The translations under genes and the position numbers were made by a program. The notes beneath the pieces were generated by a model. That model ran no database searches. It was not told the DNA's origin and saw nothing but the letters and a program-made list of their open reading frames with translations. A stretch of 64,000 bases of DNA, from the sequence record PP534475.1; one strand, 5' to 3'. Shown one piece after another: positions 10,706 through 20,583 of this stretch. Source of the stretch: Escherichia phage YJin-2024a. Numbering within the stretch: position 1 is the stretch's first letter; every line of letters begins with the position of its first letter.

Positions 10706-10734
10706 TTGCTTTCATCCCTCTATTTTGCTATAAT
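10706..10734 (+). promoter_or_regulatory. sigma70 promoter, near-identical to T5 PN25 (TTGCTT-17-TATAAT)
   Basis: aaaaatgtatTTGCTTtcatccctctattttgcTATAATagattcataaatt matches the PN25 core as I recall it. Confidence 0.75.
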
Positions 10735-10765
10735 AGATTCATAAATTAGAAATGGAGAGATAAAT

Positions 10766-11864: not shown

Positions 11865-12015
11865 TTTGACTTTTGCCAAATTTCATAAGATTACACATGG
11901 AGGTGTGCCCAGTGGCCTCCCGGATGAGAATGCGTCTCATTACCGCCCGGTACTTAGCAGACTAATAGTCACGGCATGTTATCATTGCACACCGTGACTA
12001 TTTCAATTTTAATTA

Positions 12016-12750
12016 TTATGCGACTTTTAGTTTCTCAATATATTGTTGCGGGCTGCAACTATATTCCGCGCGTTCTTCCTCGGTCATACTTTCCCAGCAT
12101 AACTTCAATCGATCGGCTAGAAATTGATAATCATTATCATCGTCGAGAGATTCATCAATAAAGGTTCCGCCTATCAATGCCACGCCGATGGATAGAATAT
12201 CATTAACGGCTTGCGCATCTAGCGTTTTAAATCCGTATGACGCCGCCGCTGATAATACACCTTTATGATCATCAATCATTGTAAAATCAGCGTTCGGATA
12301 TAGTTGCTTGAATAGCTCAAAGTAATGGCTTTTATATATATCGTCCTTGCTGTGGTATATCTCGCTAACCTTATCAGCCGTAAAATATTTGTGAAGTGTA
12401 TCGCGGGAAAACACGCGGATATTAGTATCCCCACGCCCGCGCAATCCTTGTTTGCGTAGGAAGTAATAATCTGACTTGCTCATCAGTCGAGCGGTACAAA
12501 TAATGTTTAAAGTGTTTGCGTCATTCATGCACTGGCGCATATATTCCACCAATGGCAATAAGGTATCTTGCATAATTAAATCATGCTTGCAAGCCTCATT
12601 TTTATACTTATTTAAATCTAAATTACCCTCGCTATCAAAGCAAGGTGCTACACGATGGAACGAATTAATGATTGTGCCATCAAGATCCCAGATCATGACA
12701 CGGGAAATATGCGGGAAATTACGGGTAATATTCGTTTTAACTTGATTCAT
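12016..12750 (-). CDS. dmp: 5'-deoxyribonucleotidase (HAD superfamily), Dmp-like
   Basis: HAD motif I WDLDGTI; start placed at the internal Met with GGAGA RBS (244 aa). Confidence 0.7.
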   Translation of the reverse strand: MNQVKTNITRNFPHISRVMIWDLDGTIINSFHRVAPCFDSEGNLDLNKYKNEACKHDLIMQDTLLPLVEYMRQCMNDANTLNIICTARLMSKSDYYFLRKQGLRGRGDTNIRVFSRDTLHKYFTADKVSEIYHSKDDIYKSHYFELFKQLYPNADFTMIDDHKGVLSAAASYGFKTLDAQAVNDILSIGVALIGGTFIDESLDDDNDYQFLADRLKLCWESMTEEERAEYSCSPQQYIEKLKVA

Positions 12751-12830
12751 TTTGTTACGTTCTCCATTAAAGGGATTTAGTTTATCCAGCATTACCCGCT
12801 ATTTATAAGCGGGTAATAATAAATCAACTA

Positions 12831-13223
12831 TTAAAGACCATAAGCCAACGCATCAGCGATGAAGCTAATATCTTCGCCGGATACATGAGAACGAATACCA
12901 GCGCAAGTATACACCTTTGCGCTCGTTAGCTGATCATCAAAGCAAGCTGGACAAGGCGCGACAACTGCAAACGCTAGGCCAGCTTTTACGGCGTCGATGA
13001 TAATCGTTTCCTGCTTCACCGTATCAACATAAACGCCTGCGGCCTTGATGTGACTACTTGCGCGGCCTTGAGTATAGGCAAAGGTAGTAACCTGCAAAGC
13101 GTCATTGAAGTCTAATAATTCATCAATAACGTGCCCCGCCTCAACGTGGTAACGTTCACCATTAGAATAAACCAGAACGATTGAGGATTGAGCGCGATCG
13201 AATGGAATATTTTGCTTTTTCAT
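12831..13223 (-). CDS. hypothetical protein (130 aa)
   Basis: ORF with conserved pre-early leader upstream; contains PCPAC motif but no convincing family assignment. Confidence 0.5.
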   Translation of the reverse strand: MKKQNIPFDRAQSSIVLVYSNGERYHVEAGHVIDELLDFNDALQVTTFAYTQGRASSHIKAAGVYVDTVKQETIIIDAVKAGLAFAVVAPCPACFDDQLTSAKVYTCAGIRSHVSGEDISFIADALAYGL

Positions 13224-13288
13224 GTTTATAACTCCAATTAATTTAATAAGGGATATAAGCGAGGTATATACCCCGCTTATAAAGTTAA

Positions 13289-14959
13289 TTATGCGAAAAA
13301 TTTGCCGTTTTTAAAGTCAATCAAAGTGCGCTGACCGTTCGCATAGGTAATTAAATGCGTTTGCGTCCAGCTTGACGCGCCAACGTTGTAACCCATATCG
13401 AGGGAACCAGCAACGCCCGCGGTATATACACCGCCGTAAATGCTTGCCGTATGCGTATGCCCCGTGTTTAACTTGCCCAATTTTTTAAATTGCTTCGGAT
13501 TGCCACGGCTGCCGTTAATGCCGTTGTGACCGTGTACGCCGCATTCAATGCCTGCAATTTTAAATGATTGGTCAGTCGTTAGGAAAATTGCGTTAAACTC
13601 GCAACCTGCAACCGTACGCAGCGCATAATCTAGCACGTTGAAAGTATCGTCATGATTACCGATTGCCGCGTAAATCGCAGCATTAAGGCGGTGATACAGT
13701 TCCGCGTTGGCTGGATCGTCTTTAATGTTAGCATTGCGATCATCAAGCCAACGAGAAAGCGCCAAATCGTGGTTTGATTCCACAATGATTGTTTGACTAA
13801 AATCACGTTCCATTGATTCCAGCACGCGCCCGGTGTCGATCAGATCATCAATAACCTTATCACGTCCGGCTGCATACTGTTTCGCTAGAAATACACCAGA
13901 CGCGCGGTTGTGATGGTTGCGTGATGTAAAATCATGCACGTCATGGACGAATTGATATTTTGGTTTGAGAATATCCACTAGCCCATAAGTATCACCGTGA
14001 CCCCATGACGCAGCGGCGCACTCCTCGTCTAATTTTTCGGCGTGAATATCGCCATATTGCAAGCCTAAAACATGCCCCGTTGTTTCAAAGCATCCGGTGG
14101 GAGTAGCGCAAACGTTCAGATCGTAAAACATGCCGCTTTCGTCCATTGTTTCAAGCTGGCGCACAAAAAACTCACCGTCTTCGTCGAACTCAACAATCAG
14201 CGCACCGTAATTATGCAATGCTTCCGCTTTTTGCCCTGCTTTCTGCTGAATGTAGTTTTTAAGCGTTGCCGTTCCGGTTGAATACATGCGGCGTACTACT
14301 TCACCTTTGAGAGCTGGGACGCTTTCGGCGGTGATTTTAGCGTGACCAATTGCCAGACCTTCAAGATTAAGCGCCGTTGCAGTTTCTGCAAATCCAGATA
14401 GCGGGTAATCTGCGGTGGGCAAAACATTAATTTCAGCCATGAAAGCGAAACGGCGGTTATTTAAAAACACGTTTTTGCTGCAAATATATTTATCAAATGC
14501 GGAATCATATTTTACACCGTCTGCGCCTTCACCATTTTGAAAGCCGTTTTTGTTATAAATATACTTAGAAACAAGCAAATCAGCGCCGATAAATTGGGCA
14601 TATTGTTCAAGCGAGGCTAAAAAGTTTTTATGAGGGAAAGTATTATTCTGAATCGATGTAATAATAAAGCGTTTGCCTTGTTTTACTTCCCACTGTTCAA
14701 CCGTGCTGGAAATAATTCCAGCCGCTTCGGGGCGCTCGTCGTTTTTAATGGCTTTTACAGCTTTCGCCGCTTTTGGTTTCGCTGGTTTATTTGCTTCTAA
14801 CCAATCGCAAATTGCGGTCGAGTGCTTCGTTGTGTCATATACCGCTTTAGAAATATCGTCACAAACTTCCAGCTTGGTGGCGCGCAGACGTTTACCGTAG
14901 AAATTAAAGTCAGCGGCCAGTTTCAGGATAACGGTTTGTTTTTCTGCGGAAAAAATCAT
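13289..14959 (-). CDS. A1: A1-like pre-early protein, calcineurin-like metallophosphoesterase
   Basis: GDIHA, GHGDTYG, SNHD and GHTH phosphoesterase motifs; 556 aa from the internal Met, the length I recall for T5 A1. Confidence 0.75.
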   Translation of the reverse strand: MIFSAEKQTVILKLAADFNFYGKRLRATKLEVCDDISKAVYDTTKHSTAICDWLEANKPAKPKAAKAVKAIKNDERPEAAGIISSTVEQWEVKQGKRFIITSIQNNTFPHKNFLASLEQYAQFIGADLLVSKYIYNKNGFQNGEGADGVKYDSAFDKYICSKNVFLNNRRFAFMAEINVLPTADYPLSGFAETATALNLEGLAIGHAKITAESVPALKGEVVRRMYSTGTATLKNYIQQKAGQKAEALHNYGALIVEFDEDGEFFVRQLETMDESGMFYDLNVCATPTGCFETTGHVLGLQYGDIHAEKLDEECAAASWGHGDTYGLVDILKPKYQFVHDVHDFTSRNHHNRASGVFLAKQYAAGRDKVIDDLIDTGRVLESMERDFSQTIIVESNHDLALSRWLDDRNANIKDDPANAELYHRLNAAIYAAIGNHDDTFNVLDYALRTVAGCEFNAIFLTTDQSFKIAGIECGVHGHNGINGSRGNPKQFKKLGKLNTGHTHTASIYGGVYTAGVAGSLDMGYNVGASSWTQTHLITYANGQRTLIDFKNGKFFA

Positions 14960-15048
14960 AATAATAAACTCCATTAAAGGGACTAGGTTAATAATGGCAA
15001 TGTTGCCAAATATAACGCCTTGAATAATAGGCGTTATAATTTGCAACA

Positions 15049-15246
15049 TTAATTTAAAGGCATCAGGCTAGAACTAACACCACAAACAATGGCAGCAATA
15101 AAACAAATCAGACCTAAACGCTTTGCCAATATTGATTTACGTTTAAAATAATACGAATCTAAATCATTTTGAAAATATGCGAACAATAATGAAGCCGCCA
15201 TAATAAATAAGCCTAGAATGAGCGATTCAGTGGGGTAAAAGATCAT
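15049..15246 (-). CDS. small membrane protein
   Basis: Hydrophobic 65 aa; start placed at the ATG preceded by the conserved pre-early leader (the ORF track begins at an upstream GTG). Confidence 0.4.
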   Translation of the reverse strand: MIFYPTESLILGLFIMAASLLFAYFQNDLDSYYFKRKSILAKRLGLICFIAAIVCGVSSSLMPLN

Positions 15247-15303
15247 TTTAATAACTCCAATTAAAGGGAAATTATAGTGGGGAATAATCCCCACTAGTTA
15301 AAT

Positions 15304-15711
15304 TTATTCACCTGCGGCCTGTTTTACCTCATCGGCAACGCCTAGCAGTTGCGCCACGGCGTCCAACGTTTCTAATTTTGCGCTTTCCAGTGATGCCAGA
15401 TCATCGGCGTCCTTGATAATGCCGGAATCAATAGCGTGTTTTGCAATTACTCGCACATAGTGAGCTTTACGGATTGAACTACCGCCGCCAACTTTGCGCG
15501 GCTTGTCGCTTTTCTGGTAGGCTTTCGCGCTGGTCAATTTCGAACGAACTGACACGGGAGAAGTAGCGCCCACTGCCTTTGCGATCTCTTTCAAGCCGTC
15601 GCTATTTGCAAAATCTAGCCCGTTTTCATTGATTAGTTGCTGATACATGGAAACAGCCTGCTGGGTGTTTTCTTCGTTCCAGGAAAATTTTGCGGTTTTT
15701 GCGTTAGTCAT
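15304..15711 (-). CDS. A2: A2-like pre-early protein
   Basis: 135 aa, basic C-terminal half; immediately downstream of A1; conserved leader upstream. Confidence 0.55.
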   Translation of the reverse strand: MTNAKTAKFSWNEENTQQAVSMYQQLINENGLDFANSDGLKEIAKAVGATSPVSVRSKLTSAKAYQKSDKPRKVGGGSSIRKAHYVRVIAKHAIDSGIIKDADDLASLESAKLETLDAVAQLLGVADEVKQAAGE

Positions 15712-15811
15712 GATATAAACTCCAATTAATTTAATTTAAGGGATTAAATGATTAACTAATGTTAATCGTTATATACCCCAAACTATCGGGGCATATAAAG
15801 TTAACACTAAT

Positions 15812-16063
15812 TTATAAAACGGCTTCCCATTTTTCGTTGCGTTGAACAACCTTTACAACGTCGCCGGATTTAACGCGAACGTTATAAATCGGCTTGCCGC
15901 TGTTACTGCGTTCTGTTTCAGCGTATACCGCGTCAATTGTATCGAACGGCATGAGCGCCGCGCCTTTAATACGTTCGGCTTTTCCGGTTAATTCGTCCGT
16001 TTTAGTAACGAAAGGAATAAAAACGGATTGACCAATTTTTGGCGCGGTAATAACGTTTTGCAT
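15812..16063 (-). CDS. hypothetical protein (83 aa)
   Basis: ORF with partial conserved leader upstream. Confidence 0.4.
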   Translation of the reverse strand: MQNVITAPKIGQSVFIPFVTKTDELTGKAERIKGAALMPFDTIDAVYAETERSNSGKPIYNVRVKSGDVVKVVQRNEKWEAVL

Positions 16064-16293
16064 AATATAAACTCCTGTTTATTTGCTGGATTGTTCCGCA
16101 TTACCTGCTAGAAAATAACAGGTAATAAGAAAAAATCCGCTCGCCATTGTAAAATCAATTTAAGGAACTCCACGAAGGCCGCTATATCCCAGTTAGGGGG
16201 CGGGGCACATTATGGCAAGTACCGGCCGTCAGATTTTATCAAGTTATCGCTCTTATCGAACTGGGTATATCTTAAAGCCTACCGGCTAGGTTG

Positions 16294-16497
16294 TCAAATA
16301 GTTTTTTGCGCTTTTTTATGATTTTCCTTCAGGTCAATCATAATGTTTCGCCAGATCATTTCTAGTCCTTGCTGGCGGCCTTTCTTGTACTGCTCAAATC
16401 GATATTTTACCGATCTTTGCGCTACTGTCAATAAATTTTTTGTTTTGCTATCCAGTGCCTTGCTAGGTTTACCAGTGATCAATAAAGTTTGTTTCAT
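16294..16497 (-). CDS. hypothetical basic protein (67 aa)
   Basis: ORF only. Confidence 0.3.
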   Translation of the reverse strand: MKQTLLITGKPSKALDSKTKNLLTVAQRSVKYRFEQYKKGRQQGLEMIWRNIMIDLKENHKKAQKTI

Positions 16498-17187
16498 ATC
16501 GTCGATTCCTTATAATGAATAAGTTTACCGCCGATAGGCTTTAAGATATACCCAATTTTTAAAGAGCGCGGCGGTAAACTTCCCGCCGTGTAGTTCGTCA
16601 TTGCCGCCCTACGAGATAAATAATAACAAACAACGAAAAAGGCGCAACCTTATATTTGTAAAGAAATGTAAAGACAAACGCCACCGGACACCGTGCGGCG
16701 ACCTGGGCGCAGCGCATTAAAATTAAAAGAAACGGGCGCGCGAATAACACAAAACATAGCAGATAGGCAAGTGATTTTTTCATTTATATTTGCTTTGGGG
16801 GTATTGACAAAATCTAAAAAGCTCGTGGCAGCGATAAACGGCTTATCCCTTTATGATTGGATGGCTAAAAACTTTATCGCGTTCTGGGGCGTTTTAGGCC
16901 GCCTATTTTCGACTTAACAAATCATTAACAAACGCAAAATTGAAAAATAGTTGGAAAAGGTCTTGACTTTTAAAAATCAAGGGGCGTTGCGTTAATTTAT
17001 TAAATAAAATATTTGACTTTTATTTGTTAGTATGCATCGGAAAGATAGCAGACTAATAATTGCTAGGATGATAATCATGCTGGTGGATTGTAACGGCCTG
17101 AATTATTAGCAGACTATTAATCACGGAAAATCTCATTAGCCAACTAACTATTTCATGATATATAATATACTTATAAATTAATGAGAA

Positions 17188-17270
17188 ATAATAACAATAA
17201 GAAATCATCACCATTATAATAATAACAATAAGAAATCATCACCAATATAATAATAACTATAAGAAACTAT
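17188..17270. repeat. tandem ~30 bp repeat, about 2.8 copies
   Basis: ataataacaataagaaatcatcacca repeated head-to-tail. Confidence 0.7.
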
Positions 17271-17280
17271 CGGCCTAAGT

Positions 17281-17410
17281 GAGAACCACTATCATTTAAG
17301 TTATCCACAACGTTTTCCACAGCACAAAATAACTTGACACGATAGGCGGCGATATGAGGGCTTTTACACATACTTATCCACAGGTTATCCTACTGTATAA
17401 ATATACAGGG
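17281..17410. repeat. inverted repeat arm A with DnaA-box motifs
   Basis: Two perfect TTATCCACA boxes (about 17301 and 17375); reverse complement matches 19575..19710. Confidence 0.75.
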
Positions 17411-17707: not shown

Positions 17708-17971
17708 TTGAAAATTTTCCCAAAAATTTGGAGGCTTAAAATGGTTGCTTTTTCTTCTTCTGACGCTCTTTTCACTGGTAAAGGCTGGGTATCAAATCGC
17801 TGGATTATTCAGGAAATGGTGCAAGAATACGGCATTGCTAAAACTTATACTACCATTCAGGCGCTTTATGATAATGATCAAATCGATCAGCAAACAGCGG
17901 GCTTTTTACTGGATACCCTGAAGGCGGAACACTGTACCAAAAAACAAGCCGCCAAAATTGTTTTAATGTAA
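17708..17971 (+). CDS. hypothetical protein (87 aa)
   Basis: GGAGG RBS; first gene of the plus-strand module. Confidence 0.5.
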   Translation: MKIFPKIWRLKMVAFSSSDALFTGKGWVSNRWIIQEMVQEYGIAKTYTTIQALYDNDQIDQQTAGFLLDTLKAEHCTKKQAAKIVLM

Positions 17972-19574: not shown

Positions 19575-19710
19575 GGAATACTGTATATTTATACAGTAGG
19601 ATAAGCTGTGGATAAGTCTGTTGATAACGCCTCAAAATGGCTAGGATTTTGTCAAGTCAAATCGTGCTGTTGATAAGTCTGTGAATAACTTAAATAACAG
19701 TGTTTCTCAC
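19575..19710. repeat. inverted repeat arm B with DnaA-box motifs
   Basis: Reverse complement aligns with 17281..17410 over about 130 bp; TGTGGATAA at about 19607. Confidence 0.75.
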
Positions 19711-19719
19711 TTCCATTCT

Positions 19720-19937
19720 TAAATGAGAATCATTATCGTTCGCATTCCGCTTTTTAAATGAGAATCGTTTCACTTCTTAAATGAGAATCATTCCGCTTTT
19801 TAAATGCGAATCATTATCATTTGCATTCCACTTCTTAAATGAGAATCATTCCGCTTTTTAAATGAGATTGATTCTCGTTTCACTTTCTAAATGCGAATTA
19901 TTATCATTCTCATTCCGCTTTTTAAATGAGAATGATT
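19720..19937 (+). repeat. array of 8 direct repeats TAAATG(A/C)GAAT(C/G)ATT
   Basis: Copies at about 19720, 19755, 19778, 19801, 19836, 19859, 19888, 19923. Confidence 0.8.
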
Positions 19938-19983
19938 CTTATTATCATTCGTATTTAGCGCAGGGCAATTGCCCTGCGCTTTT

Positions 19984-20583
19984 GTGCAAATCCGACATTG
20001 CTCCACGGGTGTTACGTGCGGGTGTATGTGCAAATCCGACAGGATTTTTGGTAGTGTGCAAATCCGACCCGAAAAATTTTTATAGTGTGCAAATCCGACA
20101 ATGAATTTTCCCAAAAACTCCAGCAATCTCGAACTGCGTTCGAATCCTGTGGGGTATGTGCAAATCCGACATGGTTTTTCTAGGATTAAGATGTGCGAAT
20201 CCGACAAGATTTTTATGACTTCGATTGGAGGGTGTGTGATTATGTGAGTTTGGGGAGAAGATGAGAGAGTGAGAGAAACTTGGGGGAACTGTGGGAGAGG
20301 CGCATGTTTGGTGCGGAGCACCCGATTTGCGGGGATTTTGGGGAAGAGTTGAGAAGATTTGGGTTAATTTGAGATTAGTGGAGATAAAGTAAAATTTTAT
20401 TAGCAAAATGGGGCAAAATAGCTTGACAAGTGAAAATTTCTGTGGCTCTAAAAACTCAGGTAAACATGGGCCTTCGGCCCGAAATAATGCTGCTATTTTC
20501 ATGAGATTATATGTTCCTAAAAACTTAGGCAATTGTGCAAATCCGACCATAAATTTCTAGAAACACAATGTGCAAATCCGACA
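19984..20583 (+). repeat. array of 8 direct repeats GTGCAAATCCGAC(A/C)
   Basis: Copies at about 19984, 20028, 20056, 20087, 20158, 20193, 20535, 20570, each followed by a short T-rich tract. Confidence 0.8.
20226..20400 (+). repeat. purine-rich block with several G4-5 tracts, almost no C on the plus strand
   Basis: gggagaag, tgggggaac, gcggggatt, ttggggaag within about 170 nt. Confidence 0.6.

What the first reader, a model, noticed from the sequence alone, without database searches (positions are those of the whole stretch)
12750..16080. Conserved leader motif immediately upstream of at least five pre-early genes
The start codons of the dmp-like gene (12750), 12831..13223, A1 (14959), 15049..15246 and A2 (15711) are each preceded by a shared mRNA leader of the form ATCCCTT(A/T)AATTAAATTAATTGGAGTT, with a partial copy upstream of 15812..16063. 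Small hairpins lie between the genes (for example 12793-12826, 13243-13270, 15279-15296). A shared leader suggests coordinated translational control or processing of the pre-early transcripts.
Basis: seen in the sequence. Interest (0 to 1): 0.55.

Follow-up and report, generated by a model that had tools for sequence, protein, structure and literature searches.

The report
Conserved C-box leader before pre-early genes
Five consecutive first-expressed genes of this T5-like phage each carry the same short pyrimidine box (AUCCCUU) and A/U-rich stretch just before a minimal ribosome-binding site, and this element is kept across distant relatives, is almost confined to this gene class and was not found described in the papers searched, so it is probably an extra ribosome-recruiting signal.

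Summary
On the minus strand, dmp, the T5.002-like gene, A1, the T5.005-like gene and A2 are each preceded by (A/T)(A/T)TCCCTT, an A/T-only spacer (4-14 nt), GGAG, 8-13 nt, then ATG. The strict pattern occurs 5 times in 64 kb (0.15 expected), always at these starts. A degenerate copy (AATCCAG...AGGAGTT) precedes the T5.007-like gene, and the rightward pre-early gene at 17741 also has a box. The window is a T5-like phage. The box persists in relatives down to 34% A1 identity. It is as invariant as GGAG, while the sequence just upstream varies or is replaced. In T5 it marks 7 of 17 pre-early genes against 3 of about 145 others. It is absent from translationally coupled genes. A structurally conserved mRNA-sense hairpin lies upstream of each leader in this window. 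The box is not a boxA (no G2), not an Rfam family and not a terminator. I found no description of it in the papers searched. Best reading (about 45%): a pyrimidine plus A/U upstream enhancer or standby site, probably an S1 contact, that lets ribosomes start independently at internal cistrons with a 4-nt SD. Rivals: an operator for class-specific shutoff, a processing determinant, or a recombination junction. Function is untested. Separately, rrn-type boxA elements lie upstream of the operon in most lineages.

The parts
12751..12777 (-). dmp leader: AATCCCTTTAATGGAGAACGTAACAAA, followed by ATG (C-box, 4-nt A/T spacer, GGAG, 13-nt spacer)
   Evidence: conserved in relatives
13224..13255 (-). T5.002-like gene leader, long form: TATCCCTTATTAAATTAATTGGAGTTATAAAC, followed by ATG
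   Evidence: At least four unrelated upstream contexts in relatives converge exactly at the box.
14960..14984 (-). A1 leader, short form: AGTCCCTTTAATGGAGTTTATTATT, followed by ATG
   Evidence: The box is kept before A1 down to 34% protein identity (L053, L061).
15247..15271 (-). T5.005-like membrane protein gene leader: TTTCCCTTTAATTGGAGTTATTAAA, followed by ATG
15712..15745 (-). A2 leader, long form: AATCCCTTAAATTAAATTAATTGGAGTTTATATC, followed by ATG
   Evidence: The long spacer (12-16 nt) is kept before A2 in five of six lineages.
16064..16092 (-). Degenerate copy before the T5.007-like gene: AATCCAGCAAATAAACAGGAGTTTATATT, followed by ATG
   Evidence: AATCC is invariant; the third C is present in about half of the relatives and in T5 (AATCCCCCTT).
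17715..17740 (+). Box-type leader of the rightward pre-early gene (T5.012-like): TTTTCCCAAAAATTTGGAGGCTTAAA, followed by ATG
   Evidence: same in T5
12791..12820 (-). Intercistronic hairpin upstream of the dmp leader
   Evidence: z -4.9; six different stem sequences at this position in relatives
13255..13280 (-). Intercistronic hairpin directly abutting the T5.002-like box; it contains a G.U pair that works only in the mRNA sense
14998..15052 (-). Long interrupted stem (about 21 bp) starting at the stop codon of the T5.005-like gene, upstream of the A1 leader
   Evidence: z -5.6
15275..15296 (-). Hairpin TAGTGGGGATTATTCCCCACTA upstream of the T5.005-like leader
   Evidence: compensatory TAGCGGGG/CCCCGCTA in L038-L040
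15754..15812 (-). Long stem (about 25 bp) upstream of the A2 leader; a conserved small hairpin GATTAACATTAGTTAATC (15750-15767) overlaps its 3' arm
16099..16129 (-). Hairpin upstream of the T5.007-like leader
   Evidence: C:G to U:A double changes
16556..16588 (-). Context, not part of the leaders: rrn-type boxA CGCTCTTTAAAAA (16556-16568), preceded on the RNA by hairpin CGGCGGGAAGTTTACCGCCG (16569-16588)
16269..16431 (-). Context: the two strong sigma-70 promoter matches that drive the operon (TTGACA-17-TAAGAT at 16269-16297; TTGACA-16-TAAAAT at 16404-16431). They correspond to T5 P_D/E20 and P_H22.

Best explanation
The motif is a 5' extension of the translation initiation regions of the internal cistrons of the leftward pre-early operon (T5.007-A2-T5.005-A1-T5.002-dmp) of T5-like phages. 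On the polycistronic mRNA each unit reads as follows: stop codon; a stable hairpin (in this window); a variable linker; the pyrimidine C-box (W-A-U-C-C-C-U-U); an A/U-only spacer; a minimal 4-nt Shine-Dalgarno (GGAG, flanked by bases that do not extend pairing with 16S rRNA); an A/U-rich spacer; then AUG. I propose that the C-box plus A/U tract is a single-stranded landing site for the 30S subunit. The most likely contact is ribosomal protein S1, which touches about 11 nt upstream of the SD and binds pyrimidine-rich RNA. Such a site would compensate for the short SD and let ribosomes start de novo and fast at every cistron that is not translationally coupled to its neighbour. The spacer length is gene-specific (long before A2, short before A1 and dmp) and could set relative yields. 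Shown here: the anatomy, strand, position, conservation, class specificity and absence from coupled genes. Inferred: the S1 or standby contact and any enhancing effect.
For: 1. Position and strand. The box always lies 22-32 nt before the AUG and 4-14 nt before GGAG in this window (3-16 nt from the end of the C-run in relatives), on the mRNA-sense strand, and nowhere else in 64 kb.
2. Purifying selection. The ATCCCTT columns are conserved at 90% or more, like GGAG. Leader identity is 0.74-0.92. At four of the six genes this exceeds the 25 nt just upstream (0.43-0.74). It exceeds synonymous third-codon positions at four of the six genes.
3. The box survives replacement of its upstream context. 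At least four unrelated contexts occur before T5.002-like genes and two before T5.005-like genes.
4. Deep conservation. The box is present in Klebsiella, Pectobacterium and Proteus phages and in metagenomic lineages with A1 identity of 75-34%.
5. It is tied to de novo initiation. 40 of 66 operon genes with an intergenic gap have it, against 1 of 12 coupled genes and 5 of 32 same-strand ORFs outside the operon.
6. The SD is only GGAG, flanked by U or C.
7. A/U-rich enhancers are a documented class that co-operates with the SD (PMC2176067). S1 is reported to contact about 11 nt upstream of the SD and is assayed on poly(rC-U) (PMC11959540). In the short-form leaders those 11-12 nt are AAUCCCUUUAAU.
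8. MFE folds leave the box-to-AUG stretch unpaired, apart from marginal 2-4-bp helices, downstream of a strong hairpin.
Against: 1. Predicted accessibility of the leaders is not significantly higher than for 90 other genes (0.53 vs 0.47, p = 0.13, n = 5).
2. The A/U-enhancer model does not explain why three C residues are the invariant core.
3. Early and late genes, many of them highly expressed, do without the box. A general ribosome enhancer would not need to be class-specific.
4. Leaders in one genome share lineage-specific SD-flank patterns (CTGGAGAA, TAGGAGT, ACGGAGTA). The host ribosome should not impose these, which hints at a co-evolving factor or at gene conversion.
5. The box is dispensable in at least two genomes for the T5.002-like gene (L018, L027).
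6. It is weak or absent in the Vibrio and Aeromonas relatives.
7. There is no experimental evidence of any kind.
Confidence: 0.45

Rival explanations
1. Operator for class-specific post-transcriptional control. A phage-encoded or phage-modified factor (a repressor like T4 RegA, or a nuclease like T4 RegB that cuts GGAG in early SD regions) recognises the C-box plus SD and switches off translation of all pre-early cistrons together. This would contribute to the long-known A1-dependent shutoff of pre-early protein synthesis.
For: The element is nearly confined to one temporal class: 7 of 17 pre-early genes against 3 of about 145 others in T5, and 5 of 5 against 1 of 90 in the window. The invariant core is a specific sequence (CCC), not just base composition. 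Leaders within one genome share lineage-specific patterns, as expected if they co-evolve with a phage factor. The T5 annotation states that A1 is required for shutoff of pre-early genes.
Against: No candidate RNA-binding protein was found among the pre-early products. Genes 002, 003, 005, 007, dmp and the whole right half of the pre-early region are dispensable, so only A1, A2, hdi, 009 or a later gene could supply the factor. A1 copurifies with RNA polymerase, which points to transcriptional shutoff. Spacing between box and SD varies from 3 to 16 nt from the end of the C-run, which is awkward for a single protein site spanning both. No RegA or RegB homologue is annotated in T5.
Confidence: 0.2
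2. RNA processing and stability determinant. The polycistronic pre-early RNA is cut between the hairpin and the box (RNase E type cleavage in the A/U-rich linker, or RNase III in the 21-25-bp stems). The hairpin then protects the 3' end of the upstream segment, and the box marks the 5' end of a monocistronic mRNA, in the way T7 early mRNA is processed.
For: In this window each leader lies downstream of a conserved mRNA-sense hairpin, with compensatory changes in relatives. The stems before A1 and A2 reach RNase III size. Conservation begins abruptly at the box while the linker is variable, as expected if the box is the first functional nucleotide stretch of a processed RNA.
Against: The box also occurs with no hairpin, immediately after a stop codon, when T5.002 follows a T5.003-like gene. 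The distance from hairpin to box varies from 1 to 16 nt. Most stems are only 9-12 bp, too short for RNase III. No RNase E-type motif is common to all leaders. No 5'-end data exist.
Confidence: 0.12
3. Recombination junction or concerted evolution. The leaders are copies of one short module spread by duplication or gene conversion. They serve mainly as micro-homology for shuffling small pre-early genes, analogous to the promoter-stem-loop cassettes of T4-type phages, and the CCC has no specific role in expression.
For: Gene-content breakpoints fall within about 3 nt of the box. Examples are the presence or absence of T5.003, at least four upstream contexts of T5.002, and two of T5.005. Leaders of different genes in one genome are as similar as orthologous leaders between lineages (0.684 vs 0.666; background 0.636). 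L053 carries the identical 15-mer three times.
Against: The box is kept at orthologous positions with gene-specific spacer lengths down to 34-43% A1 identity. Neutral micro-homology would not survive that divergence. It is always on the coding strand at a fixed range from the SD. It is absent from coupled genes. The within-genome excess in similarity is small.
Confidence: 0.1
4. Extra boxA-like NusB/NusE sites. UCCCUUUAA resembles boxA (GCUCUUUAA) and might load or retain Nus factors at each cistron.
For: It shares C-x-C-U-U-U-A-A with boxA. Genuine boxA elements lie upstream of the same operon.
Against: boxA requires G2, C5 and U6, and G2U inactivates it (PMC3177189). The box has U or A at position 2. 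Many variants (AUCCCAUAAC, UUCCCAAUUA) lack U6-U8. boxA acts once near the promoter, not before every SD.
Confidence: 0.03
5. Chance, or merely an SD in A/T-rich intergenic DNA.
For: The genome is A/T-rich, so A/T spacers next to an SD are expected.
Against: 5 hits against 0.15 expected. CCC is present in 5 of 5 operon genes against 13 of 90 others, p = 1.5e-4. It is conserved across lineages.
Confidence: 0.01

Closest known systems
A/U-rich, S1-dependent translational enhancers upstream of the SD (for example the T7 gene 10 'epsilon' leader and the manY enhancer)
   Same: It lies immediately 5' of the SD within the 30S footprint. It is A/U-rich and predicted mostly single-stranded. It accompanies the SD of phage genes that must be expressed fast. 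The short form CCCUUUAAU-GGAG shares CUUUAA plus SD with the T7 gene 10 RBS, AACUUUAAGAAGGAG (T7 sequence recalled from my own knowledge).
   Different: The invariant core is a C-run, not A/U. The full epsilon sequence UUAACUUUA is absent. The element is repeated at internal cistrons of one operon and is specific to one temporal class. The SD is minimal (4 nt), whereas Vimberg et al. found that enhancers help strong SDs most. No functional test exists.
T4 RegA / RegB control of early mRNAs, and the T4 gene 32 operator
   Same: A shared feature at the ribosome-binding sites of many genes of one early class. RegB cuts within GGAG of early intergenic SDs. The long-form leaders (UUAAAUUAAAUUAAUU) resemble the UUAAA repeats of the gene 32 operator. 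These comparisons rest on my own knowledge.
   Different: No RegA, RegB or gp32-like regulator was identified here. The C-box has no counterpart in those operators. Spacing to the SD is variable.
boxA (NusB-NusE binding element of rrn and lambdoid nut sites)
   Same: The sequence resembles C-x-C-U-U-U-A-A. Genuine boxA elements occur in the same operon's upstream region.
   Different: It lacks the essential G2 and often U6-U8. It is placed before each SD rather than once after the promoter.
T7 early-region RNase III sites, and T4 promoter-stem-loop (PeSL) cassettes
   Same: Stem-loops sit between consecutive small early genes. Gene-content breakpoints coincide with the repeated module.
   Different: Most stems here are too short for RNase III. 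There is no promoter in the module. The conserved part is a single-stranded box next to the SD, not the stem.

Membership tests
A/U-rich S1-dependent upstream translational enhancer | Located directly 5' of the SD, within about 35 nt of the start codon, on the mRNA strand | tested here: met
   The box lies at -22 to -32 in the window; the spacer is A/T only.
A/U-rich S1-dependent upstream translational enhancer | Single-stranded (accessible) in the mRNA | tested here: inconclusive
   MFE folds leave it unpaired apart from marginal 2-4-bp helices. Ensemble unpaired probability is 0.53 against 0.47 for other genes, p = 0.13.
A/U-rich S1-dependent upstream translational enhancer | Raises translation in an S1-dependent way | not testable with these tools
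   Needs reporter fusions and S1 or 30S binding assays.
T7 gene 10 epsilon element | Sequence UUAACUUUA (complementary to 16S nt 458-466) | tested here: not met
   Only CUUUAA is shared. Leaders read CCCUUUAAU or CCCUUAAAUU. The epsilon sequence is from my own knowledge.
boxA (NusB/NusE site) | G2, C5 and U6 (and U8) of xGCUCUUUA | tested here: not met
   The box has U or A at position 2, and G2U inactivates boxA (PMC3177189). Variants lack U6-U8.
boxA (NusB/NusE site) | Promoter-proximal, about once per transcription unit | tested here: not met
   The box precedes each of 5-7 cistrons. The true boxA is at 16556-16568.
Intrinsic terminator (for the intergenic hairpins) | G+C-rich stem followed by a U-run on the transcribed strand | tested here: not met
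   The scan flags none of the minus-strand intergenic hairpins in the window. Some relatives (My1, Proteus phage) do have U-runs.
RNase III processing site (T7 early type) | About 20 bp or more of interrupted double-stranded stem | tested here: inconclusive
   The stems before A1 (about 21 bp) and A2 (about 25 bp) qualify by size. The others are 9-12 bp. Cleavage is not testable here.
T4 RegB/RegA-type early-mRNA control | Presence of the cognate nuclease or repressor gene | tested here: not met
   None is annotated in T5. Pfam and PHROGs on nine small pre-early proteins of the window give no RNA-binding family. Distant homologues were not searched exhaustively.
Known RNA family (Rfam) | Covariance-model hit at or above the gathering score | tested here: not met
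   Only two hits, far below gathering score, and neither lies at the leaders.

The most novel reading that the evidence does not exclude
The C-box is the cis-acting address label of the pre-early class. A factor made or activated after first-step transfer (A1-dependent, or an early gene product) recognises AUCCCUU next to GGAG and blocks or cleaves all pre-early ribosome-binding sites together. That would make it the missing post-transcriptional arm of the classic A1-dependent shutoff of pre-early protein synthesis in T5. The lineage-specific leader patterns would then reflect co-evolution with that factor.
Probability: 0.17. Interest if true: 0.75.

Novelty: new variant of a known kind. Interest (0 to 1): 0.5.

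Why it matters
T5 is a classic model phage whose two-step DNA injection depends on very fast expression, and then shutoff, of a handful of pre-early genes. How those genes are translated so efficiently from one hairpin-studded polycistronic RNA is not known. How the class is switched off is also unknown. A deeply conserved, class-specific box next to a minimal SD gives a small, mutable handle on both questions. If it is an enhancer, it extends the rules for strong bacterial ribosome-binding sites (a pyrimidine box plus A/U tract compensating for a 4-nt SD) and could be useful for expression design. If it is an operator, it identifies the target of pre-early shutoff. The accompanying observation that rrn-type boxA elements precede the operon in most Demerecviridae lineages suggests that host Nus-factor antitermination is used to read through the intercistronic hairpins. 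That idea is directly testable in nusB or nusE mutants.

Tried and rejected
1. SD sequestration by the box. Only UCC/GGA (3 bp) can pair, and the folds give marginal helices. Spacers of up to 16 nt (from the end of the C-run) make a hairpin implausible. Rejected as the main function.
2. boxA identity. Rejected on G2.
3. Antisense or sRNA partner encoded elsewhere. No inverted or degenerate copy exists in 64 kb at 3 mismatches or fewer. The rest of the phage genome of this window was not available. The T5 scan found no cluster of copies.
4. Known RNA family. None.
5. Exceptional accessibility of the leaders. Not significant.
6. Consensus fold of the dmp intergenic alignment. It failed because MAFFT mixed non-homologous hairpins. 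It was replaced by per-sequence folds.
7. Base pairing of the box to 16S rRNA. I considered AAGGGA near nt 449-454, the 790 loop, and GGAU at 1529-1532, working from recalled rRNA sequence. Each gives 6 bp or fewer, or the wrong polarity relative to the SD duplex. Not pursued, and no tool result supports it.
8. DnaA-box or IHF-site resemblance at the DNA level. At most 6 of 9 matches, and it would not explain the strand and SD linkage.
9. A phage RNA-binding protein among the pre-early products. None by Pfam or PHROGs. Structure prediction of the T5.007-like protein was dropped because gene 007 is dispensable.
10. Literature. No paper in the library mentions the motif, a pre-early leader, or boxA in T5. 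Davison's 2015 review was not held.

Full report
IDENTITY OF THE REGION. The window is a T5-like phage (Demerecviridae). Positions 12000-16500 match T5 NC_005859 108-4921 at 87% identity and Salmonella phage SP33 at 93%. By the T5 annotation, the minus-strand genes are dmp (12016-12750), a T5.002 homologue (12831-13223), A1 (13289-14959, 556 aa), a T5.005-like membrane protein (15049-15246), A2 (15304-15711), a T5.007 homologue (15812-16063) and hdi/T5.008 (16294-16497). T5.003 is absent. These lie in the terminal repeat, the first-step-transfer DNA. They are regarded as one operon driven by the strong promoters P_H22 and P_D/E20. Matches to both promoters occur at 16404-16431 and 16269-16297.

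Read on the minus strand, the five start codons are preceded by these sequences:
- dmp: AATCCCTTTAATGGAGAACGTAACAAA
- T5.002-like: TATCCCTTATTAAATTAATTGGAGTTATAAAC
- A1: AGTCCCTTTAATGGAGTTTATTATT
- T5.005-like: TTTCCCTTTAATTGGAGTTATTAAA
- A2: AATCCCTTAAATTAAATTAATTGGAGTTTATATC

The pattern [TC]CCCTT[AT]{2,18}GGAG occurs five times in 64 kb, only at these sites, against 0.15 expected. So there are two forms: short (4-5 nt between CCCTT and GGAG) and long (12-14 nt). The T5.007-like gene has a degenerate copy (AATCCAG...AGGAGTT). Among about 95 putative genes of the window, only one other has a C-run, an A/T-only spacer and GGAG. That gene is the rightward pre-early gene at 17741, TTTTCCCAAAAATTTGGAGG. 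Fisher tests give 5/5 against 1/90, p = 1e-7.

CONSERVATION. T5 has the box before dmp, T5.002, A1, T5.005, A2 and T5.007. I fetched the A1 neighbourhood from annotated phages and 57 loci from IMG/VR. The box precedes most operon genes in the following:
- Klebsiella phages (A1 75% identical), e.g. ATCCCATAACTGGAG
- L045 (68%)
- Pectobacterium phage My1 (66%), e.g. AATCCCTTTGATTGGAG and TATCCCTTAATTGGAG
- Proteus phages (43%), e.g. TTTCCCTTTAATTAGGAG
- Two metagenomic lineages (34%): L053, AACCCTTTCTAGGAG and CCCCTTTAAATTTTCCCGTAATGACGGAG; and L061, ACCCTTTAAAAGGAG

The box is weak in an Aeromonas phage (dmp only) and a Vibrio phage. It is absent from unrelated phages that merely carry an A1-like protein. 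The lineage-balanced consensus is W-A-T-C-C-C-T-T-W-A-A.

Among close relatives the ATCCCTT columns are conserved at 90% or more, like GGAG. Mean pairwise identity from box to ATG is 0.74-0.92. At four of the six genes (T5.005-like, A1, T5.002-like, dmp) this exceeds the 25 nt just upstream (0.43-0.74); at A2 and the T5.007-like gene the upstream stretch is as conserved as the leader or slightly more (about 0.82). Leader identity exceeds synonymous third-codon positions at four of the six genes (A2, A1, T5.002-like, dmp). Before T5.002-like genes, at least four unrelated upstream contexts join the same leader exactly at the box. In two genomes the junction lies just 3' of it and the box is lost.

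SPECIFICITY. In 110 kb of T5, a relaxed box sits at annotated starts of 7 of 17 pre-early genes and 3 of about 145 others (p = 4e-6). Across the ten representative lineages that could be scored (the script found no A1-sized ORF in the Aeromonas locus L062), 40 of 66 operon genes with an intergenic gap of 25 nt or more have it. That compares with 1 of 12 translationally coupled operon genes and 5 of 32 same-strand ORFs outside the operon. One of those five is really the T5.007 homologue, which belongs to the operon. The element is therefore tied to de novo initiation at internal cistrons of the pre-early class.

SURROUNDINGS. In this window each leader lies downstream of a hairpin, with z-scores of -2.6 to -5.6. 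Relatives keep the structure while the sequence changes: six stem families occupy the dmp position, C:G to U:A double changes occur at T5.007, and GCGGGG/CCCCGC is replaced by GCTGGAA/TTCCAGC at T5.002. One stem in the window has a G.U pair that works only in the mRNA sense. The hairpins are not canonical terminators in the window. The stems before A1 and A2 are 21-25 bp long. Hairpin and box are separable: the box also follows a stop codon directly when a T5.003-like gene is present.

WHAT IT IS NOT.
- Not boxA. NusB-NusE requires G2, C5 and U6, and G2U inactivates boxA (PMC3177189). The box has U or A at position 2.
- Not an Rfam family.
- It has no antisense partner in the window.
- Not a stable SD-sequestering hairpin.
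- None of nine small pre-early proteins scanned has a recognisable RNA-binding domain.
- Genes 002, 003, 005, 007 and dmp are dispensable in T5. [quoted passage not shown]
- I found no mention of the motif in the literature held here.

MECHANISM. The best-supported reading is an extended translation initiation region. The box and A/U tract lie inside the part of the mRNA covered by the 30S subunit (own knowledge: protection reaches about -35). This is also where S1 is reported to contact about 11 nt upstream of the SD (PMC11959540). The SD itself is only GGAG, with flanks that do not extend pairing. A/U-rich enhancers that co-operate with the SD are documented (PMC2176067). Spacer length is gene-specific and conserved: A2 has 12-16 nt in five of six lineages, A1 6-12 nt and dmp 6-8 nt. 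This suggests tuning of output.

Several points weigh against this reading. Accessibility is not significantly higher than for other genes. The C residues are unexplained by an A/U model. Other gene classes do without the box. Leaders within one genome share lineage-specific SD-flank patterns: within-genome similarity is 0.684, orthologues 0.666 and background 0.636. These points keep three rivals alive: a class-specific operator for pre-early shutoff (RegA/RegB-like), a processing or stability determinant working with the hairpins (T7-like), and a recombination or gene-conversion module. I put the enhancer at about 0.45, the operator at 0.20, processing at 0.12, the junction at 0.10, boxA-like at 0.03 and chance at about 0.01.

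SIDE FINDING. Sequences identical to rrn boxA at positions 2-12 ([CT]GCTCTTTAA[AC]AA) lie in the operon sense upstream of the pre-early operon in most Demerecviridae lineages examined. Copy numbers are: window 1 (16556-16568, preceded by a hairpin), T5 1, L039/L040 2, Klebsiella phages 2, L045 3, My1 4, Proteus phages 4, Vibrio phage 1, and a weaker match in the Aeromonas phage. L053 and L061 have none in the stretch held. In several lineages the element lies about 20-30 nt after a TTGACA-17-TATAAT promoter. An antisense copy occurs only in the Proteus phages, one per genome. No paper in the library links T5 with boxA. This suggests that host Nus-factor antitermination helps RNA polymerase traverse the hairpin-rich operon. 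In the T5 subgroup the boxA lies upstream of P_H22 and P_D/E20, so transcripts from those two promoters would lack it. That needs experimental clarification.

VERDICT. The finding is a real, conserved, class-specific cis element that I did not find described. Its kind (an upstream element of a ribosome-binding site) is known. Its sequence, repetition within one operon and class specificity are new. Its function remains to be tested.

Noticed in passing
window 16556-16588 (minus strand); also L003, L004, L005, L039-L050: An rrn-type boxA (CGCTCTTTAAAAA) lies in the operon sense and is preceded on the RNA by a hairpin (CGGCGGGAAGTTTACCGCCG). One to four such boxA elements lie upstream of the pre-early operon in most Demerecviridae lineages examined (none in the held stretch of L053 and L061). 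They often sit about 20-30 nt after a consensus sigma-70 promoter. An antisense copy occurs only in the Proteus phages. This suggests Nus-factor antitermination of pre-early transcription. No paper in the library links T5 and boxA.
   Followed up: partly
window 16263-16279 (minus) and 16537-16553 (plus): The same 17-nt module, GGCTTTAAGATATACCC, containing the -10 region of the P_D/E20-like promoter, occurs once on each strand about 260 bp apart. This would give divergent promoter-like sites flanking hdi.
   Followed up: no
window 10729-10754 (+) and 12 minus-strand sites between 26409 and 55428: Thirteen genes share a different promoter-plus-leader module: TATAAT, 5-10 nt, (A/T)TAAATT(G/A)ATGAGAGG, then ATG. 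The early class therefore has its own conserved short 5' leader, distinct from the pre-early C-box. This resembles published T5 early promoters such as P_N25 (own knowledge).
   Followed up: partly
window 17187-17266, 19599-20109; DnaA boxes at 17301-17382 and 19607-19615: The untranslated part of the terminal repeat holds tandem repeats (31-nt unit x2.6; 81-nt and 23-nt units; 31-nt unit x2.8) and several perfect TTATCCACA DnaA boxes. This matches Davison's description of the injection-stop-signal region (10.1101/866236).
   Followed up: partly
window 13224-13290 compared with T5 (L001) 1334-1705: T5.003 is absent from this phage. In T5 its leader has the order C-run (ATTCCCC), then hairpin, then ACAGGAG, so the hairpin sits between box and SD. 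If the hairpin folds, box and SD come about 6 nt apart. hegG is also absent from the window.
   Followed up: partly
L053 5505, 5983, 8057 (metagenomic T5-like contig, A1 34% identical): Three genes share the identical 15-mer CCCGTAATGACGGAG, in which CCG can pair with CGG of the SD region. Upstream of it lies a second CCCTTT(AA) run. This is a lineage-specific double-box variant.
   Followed up: no
window 13289-15049 and 15049-15294: The mechanical ORF list offers longer versions of A1 (586 aa, starting at 15049) and of the T5.005-like gene (81 aa, GTG at 15294). The conserved leaders and the T5 annotation support the shorter starts at 14959 and 15246.
   Followed up: yes
A2, A1 and dmp leaders across lineages: The box-to-SD spacer length is gene-specific and conserved over large distances: A2 12-16 nt in five of six lineages, A1 6-12 nt, dmp 6-8 nt. 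This suggests tuned translation rates.
   Followed up: partly
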